Shown here piece after piece: positions 596-23,528 of a stretch of DNA of 31,344 bases (its first letter is position 1; each line of letters starts with the position of its first letter). This stretch comes from Thermoplasmata archaeon. GTDB taxonomy: Archaea; Thermoplasmatota; Thermoplasmata; Lutacidiplasmatales; UBA184. The stretch is taken from contig JBEKEW010000003.1 of NCBI GenBank assembly GCA_050013635.1, positions 1-31,344 of the forward strand, read 5' to 3'. Made by a program: the position numbers and the translations under genes. The notes beneath the pieces are model-generated. The model was given only the letters and a program-made list of their open reading frames with translations, made no database searches and had not been told where the DNA came from.

Positions 596-698
596 AGCGG
601 GGTAGGGTAGTCAGGAAAGCGGTCGGCGGTGCCGGCCGTCCTGAAATCCCGACGGGCTCATAACCCGTAGATCCATGGTTCAAATCCATGCCCCGCTA
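596..698 (+). tRNA. Initiator tRNA-Met (CAT), intron-containing; CCA not encoded
   Basis: Acceptor stem AGCGGGG(596-602)/CCCCGCT(691-697) with A1-U72; anticodon stem ACGGG/CCCGT with three consecutive G-C pairs; loop CTCATAA; T-arm CATGG-TTCAAAT-CCATG; discriminator A698. Removing 618-645 gives a 75-nt cloverleaf. Confidence 0.95.
618..645 (+). other. Non-canonical tRNA intron (28 nt) in D-loop, about position 20a/21
   Basis: Central 4-bp helix CAGG(612-615)/CCTG(640-643), two 3-nt AAA bulges (616-618, 644-646), intron hairpin GCGGTCGGC(619-627)/GCCGGCCGT(631-639). Confidence 0.87.
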
Positions 699-9931: not shown

Positions 9932-9995
9932 TCCCTTCCCGAGCGCGGAGGAGGCGGCCGCGGCGGGGGCAGTTTCCGTTCCTCGGCCACAGACC

Positions 9996-10000
9996 TTAAA
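9996..10000 (+). promoter_or_regulatory. Probable TATA box of pyrG
   Basis: (CC)TTAAA about 34 nt upstream of GTG10034. Confidence 0.4.
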
Positions 10001-10033
10001 GGAGGGATTCCATACACGCGCCCGGAGCTGTTC

Positions 10034-11668
10034 GTGAAGGTTCTGGTGGTCAGCGGGGGCGTGATTTCGGGCCTCGGCAAGGGCATCACGACCTCGTCGC
10101 TCGGCCGTCTCCTGAAGGCGCGGGGGATCCCCGTCACGATTCTCAAGATCGATCCCTATCTCAACGTCGACGCGGGAACGATGAACCCGTACCAGCACGG
10201 CGAGGTGTTCGTGCTGGACGACGGTACCGAAGCGGACCTCGATCTCGGCAACTACGAACGGTTCCTGGGGCAGAGCCTCTCCGGGACCCACAATCTGACG
10301 ACCGGGAAGATCTACCGTTCCGTCATCGAGAAGGAGCGTCGCGGCGACTACCTCGGCAACACCGTGCAGATCATTCCGCACGTCACGGGGGAGATCAAGC
10401 GGATGATCCGAGAGGTGGCGCAGTCGGCCGGCGCGGAAGTGATCCTGGTCGAGGTCGGGGGCACCGTCGGCGACATCGAGTCGATGCCGTTCCTCGAGGC
10501 GCTGCGCGAGCTTTCCTACGAGCTCGGAGATGGCCACATGGCGTTCGTCCACACCACGCTCGTGCCGGTGGTGGGGCCGGTCGGCGAGGCGAAGACGAAG
10601 CCGACGCAACACTCCGTGCGGGAGCTGCGCGCGATCGGGATCCGCCCGAACTTGATCGTCGCCCGGGGCCCGTTGCCGCTCACGGCGGATATCAAGGCCA
10701 AGATCTCCCTATTCTGCGACGTCCCTCCCGAGGCCGTCATCTCGGTGCCGGACCAGTCGACCGTCTACGAGGTCCCCCTCGTGCTCGAGGCCCAAGGCGT
10801 CGGCCCGCTCCTCGAGCGGCTGCTCGGTCTGCCCGAGCGCCGACCCGACTACACCGCCTGGAAGCAGTTCCTCGATACCTACCGGCGGGCGGAGGGTTCC
10901 ATCGAGATCGCGGTGGTGGGCAAGTACACCGAGTTGCGGGACGCCTACCTGTCGCACTCGGAGGCGTTCCACCACTGCCAGGGCCACCTCGGATGCGAAA
11001 TCCGCCTGCAATGGTACGACGCCGAGGACATCGCGAAGAACCCCTCCCTCCTCAGCCGGCTCGAGCAGTCGGACGGGGTCCTCGTCCCGGGCGGGTTCGG
11101 TGCCCGGGGCGTCGAGGGAAAGGTCCTCGCGATCGAGCGGGCGCGCCTCCGGCGCATCCCGTACCTCGGGGTCTGCTACGGCTTCCAGATGGCCGCCGTG
11201 GAGTTCGCGCGCAATGTCCTCTCCCTTCGGGGCGCCAATACGACCGAGGTCGATGCCGAGACGCCCGACCCGGTCGTCTGCCTTCTCGAACAGCAGAAGG
11301 GGATCGCGGAGATGGGGGGCACGATGCGCCTCGGAACGCAGCGCGTGGTGCTCACCGCGGGGTCGAAGATCGCCCAGTACTACGGCGTCACCGAGATCTG
11401 GGAGCGGCACCGGCACCGGTACGAGATCAACCCGACGTACCTCGACCGCTTCCAATCCCACGGCTTGAGCGTCACGGGGCGGGCGGTGGACGGCCGCGTC
11501 GAGTCGTTCGAGCTCGCCGACCATCCGTTCTTCATCGGGGTGCAGTTTCATCCGGAGTTCCTCTCCCGGCCGGAGGCCCCCCATCCCCTGTACCTGGCGC
11601 TGGTGCGGGCCGCCCTGGCCCGCAAGGAGGTGCCGACCCCTGCCGCCGCCACGCCGATCGTCCCGTGA
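10034..11668 (+). CDS. pyrG: CTP synthase
   Basis: VVSGGVISGLGKG, KIDPYLNVDAGTMNPYQHGEVFV, KTKPTQHSV, glutaminase GVCYGFQ, ERHRHRYE, QFHPEF. Confidence 0.98.
   Translation: MKVLVVSGGVISGLGKGITTSSLGRLLKARGIPVTILKIDPYLNVDAGTMNPYQHGEVFVLDDGTEADLDLGNYERFLGQSLSGTHNLTTGKIYRSVIEKERRGDYLGNTVQIIPHVTGEIKRMIREVAQSAGAEVILVEVGGTVGDIESMPFLEALRELSYELGDGHMAFVHTTLVPVVGPVGEAKTKPTQHSVRELRAIGIRPNLIVARGPLPLTADIKAKISLFCDVPPEAVISVPDQSTVYEVPLVLEAQGVGPLLERLLGLPERRPDYTAWKQFLDTYRRAEGSIEIAVVGKYTELRDAYLSHSEAFHHCQGHLGCEIRLQWYDAEDIAKNPSLLSRLEQSDGVLVPGGFGARGVEGKVLAIERARLRRIPYLGVCYGFQMAAVEFARNVLSLRGANTTEVDAETPDPVVCLLEQQKGIAEMGGTMRLGTQRVVLTAGSKIAQYYGVTEIWERHRHRYEINPTYLDRFQSHGLSVTGRAVDGRVESFELADHPFFIGVQFHPEFLSRPEAPHPLYLALVRAALARKEVPTPAAATPIVP
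11624..11631 (+). promoter_or_regulatory. Shine-Dalgarno for aspS, inside pyrG 3' end
   Basis: AAGGAGGT ending 8 nt before in-frame CTG11640. Confidence 0.65.
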
Positions 11669-12950
11669 GCTGCGCGAGCTGGACGGCGCCACCGTCCGGA
11701 TCGCCGGCCACCTCGAAGAGTACCGCGCGCTCGGAGGCGTAGCGTTCGCCCTCGTGCGGGACCGCTCGGGCACGACCCAGGTCACCCTCAAAAAGGGTCG
11801 GGCCGACCCCGCGCTGTTCACGCTGCTCGCGGAGCTGCCCCGCGAATCGATCGTCGAGGTCGAAGGAACGGTCCATCGCTCGGAGCGAGCGAACCGCGGG
11901 ATCGAGATCCACCCGGAGCGGGTGGGGGTCATCTCGCGGGCGGCGGTCCCGCTGCCGTTGGGCGTCGTGGACAAGGTCCCCGCCGAACTCGATACCCGCC
12001 TCAACCATCGGGTCCTCGATCTCCGCAAGCCGACGGTGCGGGCGATCTTCGAGCTGCGGGCCGCCCTGCTGCGCGGGTTCCGGCACGCCTTCACCGAACG
12101 GGGATTCTTGGAGGTCGAAACCCCCAAGCTGCTGCGCCAAGGGGCCGAAGGGGGCGCGACGCTCTTTCCCGTGCAGTACTTCGAAGGGCGCGCGTACCTC
12201 GCCCAGAGCCCCCAGCTGTACAAGCAGATGCTGATCGGCGCCGGGTTCGAACGTGTGTTCGAGATCGCACCGGCGTTCCGGGCCGAACCGTCCGACACCG
12301 TACGCCACATCACCGAGTTTACGAGCCTCGATGCCGAGATGGGATACATCGACGGGCCGGAGGACGTGCGCGCCGCCTTGGAGGGCGTGGTCGCCGACGC
12401 GATCCGGACCAGCCGAGAACAGCTCCTCCGCGCGGAGAACCCCCTCGCGGCCGGGTTGCCCGAAATCGTGCTCCCCTTCCCCCGCATACCCTTCGCGACT
12501 GCGGCGGAATGGCTGAACCGTTCCGACCTCGACCACGACTTCGGTACCGAGGAGGAGCGCGCGATCGGAGAGATCGCCGTGGAGAGGTTCGGGAACCCGC
12601 TCTATTTCCTGATCGATTACCCGGCCGCGATCAAGGCCCAGACCTTCTACGTCGGGCGACGGGACGACGTTCCCCGCCTCACCGGCTACTTCGACCTCGA
12701 TTACCGCGGGCTCGAGATCGCGAGCGGAGGTCCCCGCGAACATCGCCTCGATCGGCTCGAAGCGCAGATCCGCGAGGCCGGTTTCGATCCGGCGTCCTTC
12801 GCGGGGTACCTGGAAGCGTTCCGATACGGCATGCCGCCGCACGGCGGCTGGGGGCTCGGGATCGACCGCCTCGTCCAGGCGCTGGCGCGCCTCCCGAACA
12901 TCCGGGAGGCTCGCTTATTCCCCCGCGACCGCTACCGTCTCGAACCGTGA
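11640..12950 (+). CDS. aspS: Archaeal-type aspartyl-tRNA synthetase; inferred CTG start (436 aa)
   Basis: YLAQSPQLYKQM, FEIAPAFRAE, RHITEFTSLDAEM, GLEIASGG.REH, GMPPHGGWGLGIDRL, LFPRD. OB-fold strands LDGATVRIAGHLEEYRALGGVAFALVRDRSG lie upstream of the track's GTG11754. Identity confident; exact start inferred. Confidence 0.93.
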   Translation: MPPPRRSSRELRELDGATVRIAGHLEEYRALGGVAFALVRDRSGTTQVTLKKGRADPALFTLLAELPRESIVEVEGTVHRSERANRGIEIHPERVGVISRAAVPLPLGVVDKVPAELDTRLNHRVLDLRKPTVRAIFELRAALLRGFRHAFTERGFLEVETPKLLRQGAEGGATLFPVQYFEGRAYLAQSPQLYKQMLIGAGFERVFEIAPAFRAEPSDTVRHITEFTSLDAEMGYIDGPEDVRAALEGVVADAIRTSREQLLRAENPLAAGLPEIVLPFPRIPFATAAEWLNRSDLDHDFGTEEERAIGEIAVERFGNPLYFLIDYPAAIKAQTFYVGRRDDVPRLTGYFDLDYRGLEIASGGPREHRLDRLEAQIREAGFDPASFAGYLEAFRYGMPPHGGWGLGIDRLVQALARLPNIREARLFPRDRYRLEP

Positions 12951-12963
12951 GGGGAAGCCATCG

Positions 12964-15093
12964 ATGGTCGCCGCCAAGAGGACCCTACCCGCACCGACCG
13001 AGCTTCACGGACGATGGCAGGCGGTCTTCGAGGAAGCCGGGCTGAGGTCCGACATCCTCGGGCTCGCCGACCGTTTCCCCGAGGAGCGTTCGCTCAAGAT
13101 CCCCTTCCAGACGCTCGACCGGATCGATACCACGCTCGGCGATCTGCTGCTCGACCGTCCGGAGGAGGTGCTCGCGGCGGGGGTCCGCGGGTTGCGCGAG
13201 CTGTTGCCGCTCGACCGGCCCGAGCTCTCGGGGTTGCGGCTGCGCGTCACCGGCCTCCCCAGCACCGCGCACCGATCGATCCGGGATGTGCGGGAGGTCG
13301 ATCTCGGCCGGTTCCTCGCCTTGGATGGGATCGTCCGCAAGGTGACGGAGGTGCGCCCCCAGGTCCGCGAGGCGGTCTTCGAGTGCGTCGCGTGCCGCAC
13401 CGAGATCCACGAGACCCAGGACGCCGATGCGATGCTGTTCCGGGAACCCCTGGAGTGCCCCGACGCCCAAGGCGGGTGCGGCAAACCCCAAGGCCGCACG
13501 CGCTTCCGCTTCCTTGCCGACAAGTCCACCTACGTCGACTCCCAGCGCATCGAGGTCCAAGAGAACCCCGAGTCGTTGCGCGGGGGCGCCCACCCGCAAG
13601 GGATCCCCGTACTGCTGACGGAGGATCTCGCCGGCCACGTCATTCCCGGGAACCGGGTCGTCGCGAACGGGGTCCTGAAAGGCGTGCAACGCACCACCGG
13701 AGGTGGGCGGGGTGGGGTCGTCCGCAACACCGTTTCCGATCTGATGCTGATCGGCAACTCGGTCGAATGGAAACAGCTGGAGTACGACGAGATCGAGATC
13801 AGCGAGGAGGAGGAGCGCCTGTTCCGTCAGTTCCAGGACGACCCGACGGTGATCGACAAGATCGTGCTCTCCCTCGCTCCCACGATCAAGGGGATGGAGG
13901 AGGAGAAGGAGGCGATCGCCCTCCAGCTCTTCGGCGGGGTCGAGAAGCGCCACCCCGACGGCATCCGGACCCGCGGCGACATACACGTCCTCCTCGTGGG
14001 GGATCCCGGCACCGCGAAGAGCCAGCTCCTACGGTACATCGCCGAGGTCGCCCCCCGCGGCATTTACACGAGCGGAAAGGGTGCGACCGCGGCCGGTCTT
14101 ACGGCCGCCGCGGTCAAGGACGATTTCGCCGGAGGGCGTTGGGTGCTCGAGGCGGGGATGCTCGTGCTGGCCGACGGAGGGATGGCCGTCGTCGACGAGC
14201 TCGACAAGATGACCCCCGAGGACCGTTCGGCGATGCACGAGGCCCTCGAGCAGCAGACGGTGTCGATCTCCAAGGCCGGTATCACCGCGACCCTGAATGC
14301 CCGGTGCCCGGTGCTCGCGGCGGCGAATCCGAAGTGGGGACGCTTCGACGATCACCGGACCATCTCCGAGCAGATCGACCTCCCCGCGACGCTGCTCTCC
14401 CGGTTCGACGTGATCTACTCGATCCGGGACCGGCCCAACCAGGAGCGCGACCGGGCGTTGGCGAAAGGGATCCTCGGTTCGCACCGCGATTCGGAGCTGC
14501 CCGCGATCCCCGATGCGACCGGGCGCACCCCCGGCACGCATGCCGCCCCGTTCTCGGCGGATCTGTTGAAGAAGTACGTGGCCTACGCACGTCGCAAGGT
14601 GCGGCCGGCGTTGTCGGACGCGTCGCTGGGCGTGCTCGAGGACTTCTACGTCAGCGTCCGTCGCCAGGGGGAGGAGCCCGATGCCCCGGTGCCGATCACC
14701 GCGCGTCAGCTCGAGGCCCTGGTCCGGATGAGCGAGGCCTCGGCCCGCGCCCGCTTGTCGAACGTCGTCACGGTCGAGGACGCGCAGCGAGCGACCCGCA
14801 TCATGGACAGCTTCCTGCACCGCGTCTCGAGCACGGAAGGGAAGATCGACATCGATCTCGTTACGACCGGCACGAGCCGCAGCCAGCGGGAGCGCCAGGA
14901 CGTCCTGCTGAAGATCATGCGCGACCTGCAGGCGAACGACCCCGCTCGGACCTTTACGATCGAGGAGCTGAAGGCGGCCGCCGAGCCGCAAGGGATCCCC
15001 GAGGACCGTGTCGAGCAGCTGGTCTCCTACCTGAAGAACTCGGGAGAGCTGTTCGAGCCCCGGCCGGGGGCGCTCCAGCTGGTCCGCTTCTGA
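12964..15093 (+). CDS. mcm: Replicative helicase MCM
   Basis: Zn finger CVAC...CPDAQGGC, Walker A GDPGTAKSQLL, GKGATAAGLTAA, LEAGMLVLADGG, VVDELDKM, EQQTVSISKAG, LLSRFD, ITARQLEALVR, C-terminal winged helix. Confidence 0.97.
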   Translation: MVAAKRTLPAPTELHGRWQAVFEEAGLRSDILGLADRFPEERSLKIPFQTLDRIDTTLGDLLLDRPEEVLAAGVRGLRELLPLDRPELSGLRLRVTGLPSTAHRSIRDVREVDLGRFLALDGIVRKVTEVRPQVREAVFECVACRTEIHETQDADAMLFREPLECPDAQGGCGKPQGRTRFRFLADKSTYVDSQRIEVQENPESLRGGAHPQGIPVLLTEDLAGHVIPGNRVVANGVLKGVQRTTGGGRGGVVRNTVSDLMLIGNSVEWKQLEYDEIEISEEEERLFRQFQDDPTVIDKIVLSLAPTIKGMEEEKEAIALQLFGGVEKRHPDGIRTRGDIHVLLVGDPGTAKSQLLRYIAEVAPRGIYTSGKGATAAGLTAAAVKDDFAGGRWVLEAGMLVLADGGMAVVDELDKMTPEDRSAMHEALEQQTVSISKAGITATLNARCPVLAAANPKWGRFDDHRTISEQIDLPATLLSRFDVIYSIRDRPNQERDRALAKGILGSHRDSELPAIPDATGRTPGTHAAPFSADLLKKYVAYARRKVRPALSDASLGVLEDFYVSVRRQGEEPDAPVPITARQLEALVRMSEASARARLSNVVTVEDAQRATRIMDSFLHRVSSTEGKIDIDLVTTGTSRSQRERQDVLLKIMRDLQANDPARTFTIEELKAAAEPQGIPEDRVEQLVSYLKNSGELFEPRPGALQLVRF

Positions 15094-23330: not shown

Positions 23331-23528
23331 ATGACGATGATGATCCCGATCCGCTGCTTCACGTGCGGCACCGTCATCGGCCAGTTCTGGGACCCGTACC
23401 TCGACCGGACCGCGCGCGGCGAGAACGCGGGGGACGTCCTCGACGCGCTCGGGCTCGAGCGGTACTGCTGCCGTCGGATGCTCCTTACCCACGTCGACCT
23501 GCTCGACGAGGTCGGCCCGTACGGCTGA
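23331..23528 (+). CDS. rpoN: DNA-directed RNA polymerase subunit N (Rpo10)
   Basis: [30 protein letters not shown]; GGAGGT RBS upstream. Confidence 0.97.

What the first reader, a model, noticed from the sequence alone, without database searches (positions are those of the whole stretch)
11624..11753. Essential aspS has no canonical start: probable CUG initiation inside pyrG
The aspS frame has no ATG, GTG or TTG between the stop at 11466-11468 and GTG11754, yet the first strands of the anticodon-binding OB fold (ELDGATVRIAGHLEEYRALGGVAFAL) lie upstream of 11754. A strong AAGGAGGT ends 8 nt before in-frame CTG11640, giving MPPPRRSSRELRELDG... and 436 aa, the usual size for archaeal AspRS. The gene would overlap pyrG by 29 nt, dual-coding the pyrG tail. 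CUG initiation of an essential synthetase could be an expression-control point.
Basis: partly seen in the sequence, partly recalled or inferred. Interest (0 to 1): 0.7.

Follow-up and report, generated by a model that had tools for sequence, protein, structure and literature searches.

The report
Conserved CTG start codon of aspS
The aspartyl-tRNA synthetase gene of this peat-soil Thermoplasmata archaeon really does begin at a CTG codon inside the end of pyrG, and about 83% of 147 related species keep that CTG, so it is a genuine rare start codon that gene finders usually misplace.

Summary
The aspS frame has no ATG, GTG or TTG before GTG11754. CTG11640 lies 7-8 nt after AGGAGGTG and 29 nt inside pyrG, and counting from it puts the protein in exact register with the solved T. 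kodakarensis AspRS.

It is not an assembly error. Contigs from four other peat studies show no difference there. In 147 species of the same family the homologous codon is CTG in 122, ATG in 16, GTG in 9 and never TTG.

The T and G of that codon never change across 132 genomes, whereas free sites change 17-43 times. Codon periodicity switches from the pyrG frame to the aspS frame exactly at this codon. CTG changed to or from ATG/GTG at least 6-9 times.

The best reading is Shine-Dalgarno-led CUG initiation by initiator tRNA on a pyrG-aspS-mcm mRNA. This is inferred; nothing here shows it directly.

The suggested "expression-control point" is untested. It is weakened because two other genes of this genus show the same pattern: an MFS transporter (CTG/GTG) and truA (ACG/ATG/GTG).

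A few NCBI-named proteins already start at this CTG; most are truncated or extended. This scan has reported conserved CTG/ACG starts in other archaeal genomes.

The parts
11625..11632 (+). Shine-Dalgarno sequence AGGAGGTG of aspS, lying inside the pyrG coding sequence
   Evidence: One search gives the sequence. It is the perfect 8-nt complement of the 16S rRNA 3' end GGAUCACCUCCU found in three congeners. Positions -15 to -10 are nearly invariant in 132 genomes. That includes two pyrG third-codon positions with 0 changes, whereas other pyrG third positions change 12-34 times.
11640..11642 (+). CTG initiation codon of aspS
   Evidence: There is no canonical start in frame before 11754. The homologous codon is CTG 122, ATG 16, GTG 9 in 147 family genomes. 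Bases 2 and 3 show 0 changes; base 1 is only C, A or G. The residue numbering is in register with 3NEL/1B8A.
11640..12950 (+). aspS coding sequence: archaeal-type aspartate--tRNA(Asn) ligase, 436 codons plus TGA
   Evidence: NCBIfam NF003483 514.6 bits and TIGR00458 428.9 bits, both above their cut-offs. PDB alignment.
10034..11668 (+). pyrG (CTP synthase) coding sequence, GTG start and TGA stop at 11666-11668
   Evidence: NCBIfam NF003792 734 bits, covering residues 2-532 of 544. ORF list.
11640..11668 (+). 29-nt stretch that codes in two frames: the pyrG tail and aspS codons 1-10
   Evidence: The same 29-nt overlap occurs in 137 of 144 family loci.
11754..11756 (+). GTG that gene finders take as the start, giving a truncated 398-aa product; it is an internal Val codon
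   Evidence: P0001, 99% identical, is recorded as 398 aa starting MRDRSG. A canonical codon stands at +38 in only 24 of 144 loci.
12949..12966 (+). GAGGGGA, then 8 nt, then ATG12964 of mcm, 13 nt after the aspS stop; mcm is the next gene of the likely operon
   Evidence: pyrG and mcm also flank aspS in the two congeners checked, L002 and L009.

Best explanation
aspS is translated from CUG11640. It is the second gene of a pyrG-aspS-mcm transcript. The small ribosomal subunit is positioned by an 8-nt Shine-Dalgarno sequence (AGGAGGUG, 7 nt upstream) that lies inside the pyrG coding sequence. The ordinary initiator Met-tRNA (anticodon CAU) then pairs with CUG with a mismatch at the first codon base, giving a 436-aa AspRS that begins with Met. 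This arrangement arose in the common ancestor of one Thermoplasmata family, whose sampled genomes include Ca. Lutacidiplasma silvani. CUG has been kept in about five of six species and has been swapped for AUG or GUG several times. What is shown: the position of the start, its conservation, the conservation of the Shine-Dalgarno sequence, and the absence of any alternative start. What is inferred: that the initiator tRNA inserts Met, that the three genes are co-transcribed, and how efficient the start is.
For: (1) No ATG/GTG/TTG stands in frame before 11754. Residues 7-38 align with solved AspRS in exact register. (2) The homologous codon is CTG 122, ATG 16, GTG 9 and TTG 0 in 147 species genomes of 7 genera. 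(3) Per-site parsimony over 132 genomes gives 0 changes for codon bases 2 and 3. Free third positions change 17-43 times, and base 1 takes only C, A or G. Upstream of the codon the variable sites follow pyrG third positions; downstream they follow aspS third positions. (4) The tree requires at least 9 switches between CTG and canonical codons, at least 6 of them on strongly supported branches. (5) All 10 database proteins matched to ATG/GTG loci start at this codon. (6) The Shine-Dalgarno sequence is complementary to the 16S 3' end of congeners and is conserved even at pyrG synonymous sites. (7) Contigs of four other peat or wetland studies show no substitution or indel between 11586 and 11760. 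(8) The initiator tRNA gene in the window has a normal CAU anticodon and the three G-C pairs in the anticodon stem. (9) Orders outside the family have ATG at the same alignment position, an AT-rich upstream region and no pyrG next door.
Against: There is no peptide, ribosome-profiling or transcript evidence, and no RNA run holding the stretch was listed. Shine-Dalgarno use is a minority habit in this genome: GGAGG peaks upstream of only about 6% of well-placed starts, and ATG is not enriched after GGAGGT. The efficiency of CUG with archaeal initiation factors is unknown. The review I read names only AUG, GUG and UUG as archaeal start codons (PMC7531240).
Confidence: 0.9

Rival explanations
1. 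Translation starts at GTG11754, as gene finders call it, giving a 398-aa AspRS that lacks the first 38 residues.
For: GTG11754 is the first canonical codon in frame. A 99%-identical database protein is recorded in this 398-aa form.
Against: A canonical codon stands at +38 in only 24 of 144 loci, and the first downstream canonical codon ranges from +1 to +132. Codons 5-38 are conserved as protein with aspS-frame periodicity. They align to residues 7-38 of the solved enzymes. No Shine-Dalgarno sequence precedes 11754.
Confidence: 0.02
2. Sequencing or assembly error: the true codon is ATG, or an indel hides an in-frame GTG11630 or GTG11665.
For: The genome is a fragmented metagenome-assembled genome of 207 contigs, 83% complete.
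Against: Contigs assembled from four other studies carry the same letters with no indel. In addition, 121 other species genomes have CTG in the same frame relation to pyrG.
Confidence: 0.01
3. No separate initiation: a programmed +1 frameshift near the end of pyrG makes a PyrG-AspRS fusion protein.
For: The aspS frame is open for 57 codons upstream of the CTG and overlaps pyrG. The overlap is conserved.
Against: No slippery motif is conserved; the overlap is variable apart from the aspS codons. An invariant xTG that alternates with ATG and GTG, and a conserved Shine-Dalgarno sequence, have no role in frameshifting. Upstream of the codon the aspS frame shows pyrG-frame periodicity only. Some relatives have a stop in the aspS frame 11-15 codons upstream of the CTG (L012, L019, L021).
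Confidence: 0.02
4. The CUG is used, but only by ribosomes that have just terminated at the pyrG UGA 26 nt downstream and move back (termination-reinitiation). The weak codon would then tie AspRS output to PyrG translation.
For: The overlap is conserved, co-directional and in phase 1, which cannot shrink to -4 or -1 (PMC10666635). Coupling by termination-reinitiation has been shown in archaea (PMC6728339).
Against: The same work finds that efficient reinitiation needs overlaps or gaps of a few nucleotides, and that long overlaps are rare. A conserved 8-nt Shine-Dalgarno sequence argues for direct recruitment of the ribosome. No local RNA structure that would need unfolding was found (z = -0.62).
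Confidence: 0.15
5. The CUG is a selected regulatory device specific to aspS, a weak start that limits or tunes the level of the synthetase.
For: CTG has been kept in 83% of species over family-level divergence. TTG was never seen, although C to T is a single transition.
Against: ATG or GTG replacements arose at least 6-9 times, and two are shared by clades of 6-7 species. Base 1 changes 8 times, which is within the range of neighbouring pyrG second positions (6-26). Unrelated genes in the same genus (an MFS transporter and truA) carry CTG or ACG starts, which points to a tolerance of the whole lineage. The apparent link between ATG and a weaker Shine-Dalgarno sequence did not survive a test on independent pairs.
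Confidence: 0.2

Closest known systems
Conserved CTG start of rpsL in Deinococcus-Thermus, and CTG start of plasmid RepA in E. coli (Baudet et al. 2010, PMC2830850)
   Same: An essential translation-related gene starts at CTG. The CTG is conserved across related genomes. Gene finders mis-set the start. The initiator tRNA is presumed to read the codon.
   Different: Those cases are bacterial and have peptide evidence. This case is archaeal (aIF1/aIF1A/aIF2 machinery), lies inside the upstream gene, and has comparative evidence only.
GUG and UUG alternative start codons of archaea (review PMC7531240)
   Same: An NUG codon after a Shine-Dalgarno sequence on an internal operon gene. It alternates with ATG and GTG among relatives, just as GUG and UUG starts do.
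   Different: The review names AUG, GUG and UUG only; the string 'CUG' does not occur in its text. At this site UUG is the one NUG codon never seen.
Near-cognate initiation sites seen by ribosome profiling in Haloferax volcanii (Gelsinger et al. 2020, PMC7261190)
   Same: This is experimental evidence that archaeal ribosomes occupy near-cognate start sites: about 30% of the putative alternative sites.
   Different: Those sites were set aside as possible false positives. They were not shown to be the sole start of an essential gene, nor to be conserved.
infC (IF3) AUU/AUA start with autoregulation (cited in PMC2830850)
   Same: A conserved weak start codon on a translation gene.
   Different: IF3 itself discriminates start codons, which closes a feedback loop. 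AspRS has no known role in start-codon selection, so no such loop is evident.
Non-AUG starts (CUG, ACG) in eukaryotes read by Met-tRNAi and policed by eIF1 (my own knowledge; eIF1 role stated in PMC6237735)
   Same: The codons found in this genus, CUG (aspS, MFS transporter) and ACG (truA), are among the better near-cognate codons in eukaryotes. The archaeal factors are homologues of the eukaryotic ones.
   Different: There is no scanning or Kozak context here. For aspS a Shine-Dalgarno sequence places the ribosome.

Membership tests
Archaeal-type aspartate--tRNA(Asn) ligase (NCBIfam NF003483 / TIGR00458) | Whole-protein score above the curated cut-off | tested here: met
   514.6 bits against a cut-off of 353, and 428.9 bits against 368.4.
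Archaeal-type aspartate--tRNA(Asn) ligase (NCBIfam NF003483 / TIGR00458) | N-terminal OB-fold anticodon-binding domain followed by the class II catalytic core, about 430-440 aa | tested here: met
   Residues 7-436 align end to end with 3NEL/1B8A (438 aa). Homologues carry PF01336 plus PF00152. Several of the shortest truncated database forms (375-398 aa) list PF00152 only.
Archaeal-type aspartate--tRNA(Asn) ligase (NCBIfam NF003483 / TIGR00458) | Charges both tRNA-Asp and tRNA-Asn (non-discriminating) | not testable with these tools
   This rests on the family name only. A separate AsnRS-like gene exists at G000:C120 (36% identity), so discrimination remains an open question.
Non-AUG (NUG) start codon led by a Shine-Dalgarno sequence | No canonical start that could give the conserved N-terminus | tested here: met
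   In 89 of 119 CTG loci no ATG/GTG/TTG stands between the opening of the frame (or the edge of the fetched DNA) and codon 13.
Non-AUG (NUG) start codon led by a Shine-Dalgarno sequence | The codon alternates with ATG/GTG at the homologous site in relatives, and its bases 2 and 3 are invariant | tested here: met
   CTG 122, ATG 16, GTG 9. T and G show 0 changes in 132 genomes.
Non-AUG (NUG) start codon led by a Shine-Dalgarno sequence | Complement of the 16S rRNA 3' end lying 5-10 nt upstream | tested here: met
   AGGAGGTG with a 7-nt spacer. The 16S 3' end of congeners is GGAUCACCUCCU; G000 itself has no 16S gene assembled.
Non-AUG (NUG) start codon led by a Shine-Dalgarno sequence | N-terminal peptide or initiation-site footprint at the codon | not testable with these tools
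   The organism is uncultured and no RNA holder was listed.
Translational coupling by termination-reinitiation | Stop and start overlap or lie within a few nucleotides (-4, -1, up to about -8) | tested here: not met
   The overlap is -29 nt. The criterion comes from PMC10666635.
Autoregulatory weak start of the infC type | The gene product itself acts on start-codon selection | tested here: not met
   The product is an aminoacyl-tRNA synthetase.
Programmed ribosomal frameshift fusion | A conserved slippery site in the overlap | tested here: not met
   Within the overlap the only invariant positions are aspS codon positions, the start codon and the pyrG stop.

The most novel reading that the evidence does not exclude
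The aspS CUG is one sign of a relaxed start-codon rule in this whole lineage. In this Thermoplasmata family the initiation machinery (aIF1, aIF1A, aIF2, Met-tRNAi) would accept CUG and ACG, the better near-cognate codons of eukaryotes, as routine starts. It would do so on internal operon genes led by a Shine-Dalgarno sequence (aspS, MFS transporter) and perhaps even on leaderless mRNAs (truA, ACG with a promoter-like box about 25 nt upstream). If so, a percent-level share of genes, essential ones among them, is mis-annotated in every public genome of the group.
Probability: 0.35. Interest if true: 0.7.

Novelty: new member of a known kind. Interest (0 to 1): 0.45.

Why it matters
CUG is a permitted but very rare start codon. 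The archaeal translation review I could read names only AUG, GUG and UUG. Here comparative data from 147 species pin a CUG start on a gene expected to be essential, and show that it has been stable over family-level divergence.

This has two consequences. The first is practical: of 26 public protein records matched to CTG-bearing genomes, 19 are truncated and lose N-terminal residues of the anticodon-binding region, 4 are wrongly extended and only 3 are right. The second is mechanistic: CTG and ACG starts in two further genes of the genus give a concrete set of natural templates. With these one could ask how stringent start-codon selection by the archaeal factors is, and whether it resembles the eukaryotic order of near-cognate codons.

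Tried and rejected
(1) RNA structure around the start: the fold of 11590-11700 is no better than shuffled sequence (z = -0.62).

(2) Compensation between a weak codon and a strong Shine-Dalgarno sequence: GGAGGT accompanies 113 of 119 CTG loci but only 6 of 16 ATG loci. The weak motifs sit mostly in one clade, and the independent-pairs test gave nothing (median p = 1).

(3) Genome-wide Shine-Dalgarno test: ATG is not enriched after GGAGGT (1.09 times expectation), so a Shine-Dalgarno sequence alone is weak evidence in this genome.

(4) Composition screen for coding-like sequence upstream of the first canonical start: 8 of 739 ORFs. Two of them led to aspS and the MFS transporter. A stricter screen that also required a Shine-Dalgarno sequence returned aspS only.

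(5) Pairwise screen against 800 kb of congener G007. It was too noisy: out-of-frame conservation of overlapping genes extends the alignments, and the first canonical codon agrees in only 46 of 238 pairs. It gives no estimate of prevalence, but it did flag truA.

(6) NOG1-like GTPase at G000:C112, with CTG after AGGAGGTG: relatives are patchy and carry stops, so the case is inconclusive.

(7) ACG start of the methyltransferase at 23521: only one clear orthologue (G005) was found in 40 congeners, so it could not be tested.

(8) No RNA holder was listed for the stretch.

(9) An exact look-up of the 398-aa form found nothing, but a 99%-identical 398-aa record exists.

The CTG call in public records was therefore inferred by matching P0057, P0011 and P0069 to the fetched DNA.
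Full report
**Observation.** AAGGAGGT occupies 11624-11631, followed by 8 nt and then CTG at 11640. The pyrG stop TGA is at 11666-11668, so the two genes share 29 nt. The aspS frame is open from 11469, and its first ATG, GTG or TTG is GTG11754. Under NCBI table 11 the only other permitted starts upstream are ATC codons. GTG11630 lies in the pyrG frame and GTG11665 in the third frame.

**The gene.** From CTG11640 the product is 436 aa. It scores 514.6 bits on NCBIfam NF003483, aspartate--tRNA(Asn) ligase (cut-off 353), with profile positions 13-438 on residues 12-436. Residues 7-436 align to residues 7-438 of the 438-aa Thermococcus kodakarensis AspRS (3NEL, 1B8A). Counting the CTG as codon 1 therefore puts the protein in exact register with a solved enzyme. 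A start at 11754 would delete residues 1-38, of which 7-38 are aligned. The upstream gene is CTP synthase (734 bits).

**Not an artefact.** Contigs assembled from four other peat or wetland studies cover 11555/11586-11900, or 11450-11796. They show no substitution or indel between 11586 and 11760. The window belongs to a Thermoplasmata metagenome-assembled genome of 207 contigs, 83% complete. Its genus includes Ca. Lutacidiplasma silvani AcS3-62: contig JAKIVZ010000001.1 has the same length as contig C16 of G094. On that basis I place the lineage in the Lutacidiplasmatales of Sheridan et al. 2022 (PMC9287336).

**Comparative signature.** I located aspS in 41 and then 151 species-representative genomes and fetched the start region from 147 genomes of the family, spanning 7 genera.

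- The homologous codon is CTG in 122, ATG in 16, GTG in 9 and TTG in none.
- Three of the CTG genomes are unpublished (G019, G069, G084). Without them the first 144 loci give CTG 116, ATG 16, GTG 9.
- The 29-nt overlap with pyrG is present in 137 of 144 loci.
- The first canonical codon downstream of the start ranges from +1 to +132. It falls at +38 in only 24 loci, so GTG11754 is not a conserved start.

I then counted parsimony changes per site over 132 genomes, on a tree built without these columns.

- The second and third bases of the start codon never change.
- The first base takes only C, A or G (8 changes).
- Unconstrained third positions change 17-43 times.
- Upstream of the codon the fast sites are pyrG third positions. 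Downstream they are aspS third positions. The reading-frame signature thus switches exactly at this codon.
- The AGGAGG core is nearly invariant. Two pyrG synonymous positions inside it show 0 changes, against 12-34 changes at other pyrG third positions.

The tree needs at least 9 changes between CTG and ATG/GTG, 6 of them forced by strongly supported branches. CTG is the commonest state in five of the seven genera.

Gene callers give independent confirmation. All 10 database proteins that I could match to ATG or GTG loci start at this very codon.

**Context.** The 16S rRNA of three congeners ends GGAUCACCUCCU, so AGGAGGUG is a perfect 8-nt Shine-Dalgarno sequence with a 7-nt spacer. Shine-Dalgarno use is a minority habit in this genome. 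GGAGG peaks at -14 to -10 before only about 6% of 339 well-placed starts, and ATG is not enriched after GGAGGT. This fits a mostly leaderless organism that uses the motif at internal operon genes.

mcm follows aspS after 13 nt, with GAGGGGA 8 nt before its ATG. pyrG is preceded by a TTAAAG box about 35 nt upstream of its GTG. Genomes of other families, in the same order and class, have ATG at the same alignment position, an AT-rich upstream region and no pyrG or mcm nearby. The operon, the overlap and the start inside pyrG are therefore a feature of this one family, and CTG is its commonest start codon.

**Rivals.**

- Assembly error is excluded.
- A start at 11754 is excluded by non-conservation of that codon and by conservation of codons 5-38.
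- A frameshift fusion of PyrG and AspRS has no conserved slippery site. It also gives no reason for an invariant xTG that alternates with ATG and GTG, nor for a conserved Shine-Dalgarno sequence.
- Reinitiation after pyrG termination is possible as an added contribution. However, published work finds efficient reinitiation only at overlaps or gaps of a few nucleotides (PMC10666635).
- No significant RNA structure surrounds the site.
- The initiator tRNA gene in the window has a normal CAU anticodon loop and three G-C pairs in its stem. Nothing therefore points to a special decoding tRNA.

**Is aspS special?** A composition screen of the genome flagged 8 of 739 coding-like ORFs.

- One is an MFS transporter (G000:C7). 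Pfam MFS_1 position 1 falls at residue 17 counted from a CTG that follows GGGAGG by 8 nt. In 30 congeners the homologous codon is CTG in 15, GTG in 11, ATG in 1 and unclear in 3.
- A pairwise screen against congener G007 was too noisy to give a rate, but it flagged truA. Its homologous start codon is ACG in 21, ATG in 6 and GTG in 3 of 30 congeners. One genome has a stop two codons upstream of the ACG and no canonical codon within 40 codons.

Near-cognate starts thus recur in this genus. I treat those notes as leads only. The prevalence in this genome remains unmeasured.

**Mechanism and what it means.** The position of the start and its Shine-Dalgarno sequence are shown. Three things are inferred: decoding by Met-tRNAi with a first-base mismatch, co-transcription of the three genes, and the efficiency of the start.

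Against a device specific to aspS stand three points:

- ATG and GTG replacements persist in clades of 6-7 species.
- The first base of the codon does not evolve more slowly than neighbouring pyrG second positions (8 changes against 6-26).
- Two other genes show the same behaviour.

The complete absence of TTG, although C to T is a single transition, is unexplained. It may reflect the pyrG residue that such a change would create, or a real preference for CUG over UUG.

**Known and new.** CTG is a listed start codon of table 11. Conserved CTG starts are documented in bacteria, with peptide evidence: rpsL in Deinococcus-Thermus and RepA in E. coli (PMC2830850). For archaea, the review I read names AUG, GUG and UUG only (PMC7531240). 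Near-cognate sites seen in Haloferax ribosome profiling were set aside (PMC7261190).

Public annotation is inconsistent. Of 26 database proteins matched to CTG loci, 19 are truncated, 4 are extended and 3 (NCBI-named) start at the CTG. I therefore file this as a new, unusually well-supported member of a known kind. It is of moderate interest, and the interest would rise if a lineage-wide relaxed start-codon rule were demonstrated.

Noticed in passing
G000 contig C124, locus L325:146-1027 (+): truA-like pseudouridine synthase with ACG ACG where relatives have a start codon. In 30 congeners the homologous codon is ACG 21, ATG 6, GTG 3. One genome (L336) has a TGA two codons upstream of the ACG and no canonical codon within 40 codons. 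There is no Shine-Dalgarno sequence. A TTAA/TCAAGA-like box about 22-27 nt upstream hints at a leaderless mRNA that begins at ACG.
   Followed up: partly
G000 contig C7, locus L232:64-1287 (-): MFS transporter whose first transmembrane helix lies upstream of the first canonical codon (TTG at +48). A CTG stands 8 nt after GGGAGG. In 30 congeners the homologous codon is CTG 15, GTG 11, ATG 1, unclear 3.
   Followed up: partly
G000 contig C112, locus L231:97-1575 (-): NOG1-like GTPase ORF that opens two codons after a stop, with CTG 9 nt after AGGAGGTG; the first canonical codon is 29 codons downstream. Relatives are patchy and carry internal stops, so the start is unresolved.
   Followed up: partly
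Only one clear orthologue, in G005, was found among 40 congeners, so conservation could not be judged.
   Followed up: partly
window 11640 and homologous sites in 147 genomes: TTG never occupies the aspS start position, although C to T is a single transition and TTG is a common first canonical codon elsewhere in this genome. This is unexplained.
   Followed up: no
public protein records P0001-P0120: AspRS records of this family have 21 different lengths from 375 to 451 aa, because callers pick whichever canonical codon is nearest. Several of the shortest forms (375-398 aa) no longer list the PF01336 OB-fold domain.
   Followed up: yes
window 9990-10036: pyrG starts at GTG10034, with a TTAAAG box about 35 nt upstream and GGAGGG next to it. 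This may be the promoter of the pyrG-aspS-mcm unit; it was not examined further.
   Followed up: no
window 628-692 (+): ARAGORN misses the initiator tRNA gene, and Rfam finds it below the gathering score (24.5 bits against 29). Its anticodon arm is canonical: CAU with three G-C pairs. An earlier report of this scan says the gene carries a D-loop intron.
   Followed up: partly
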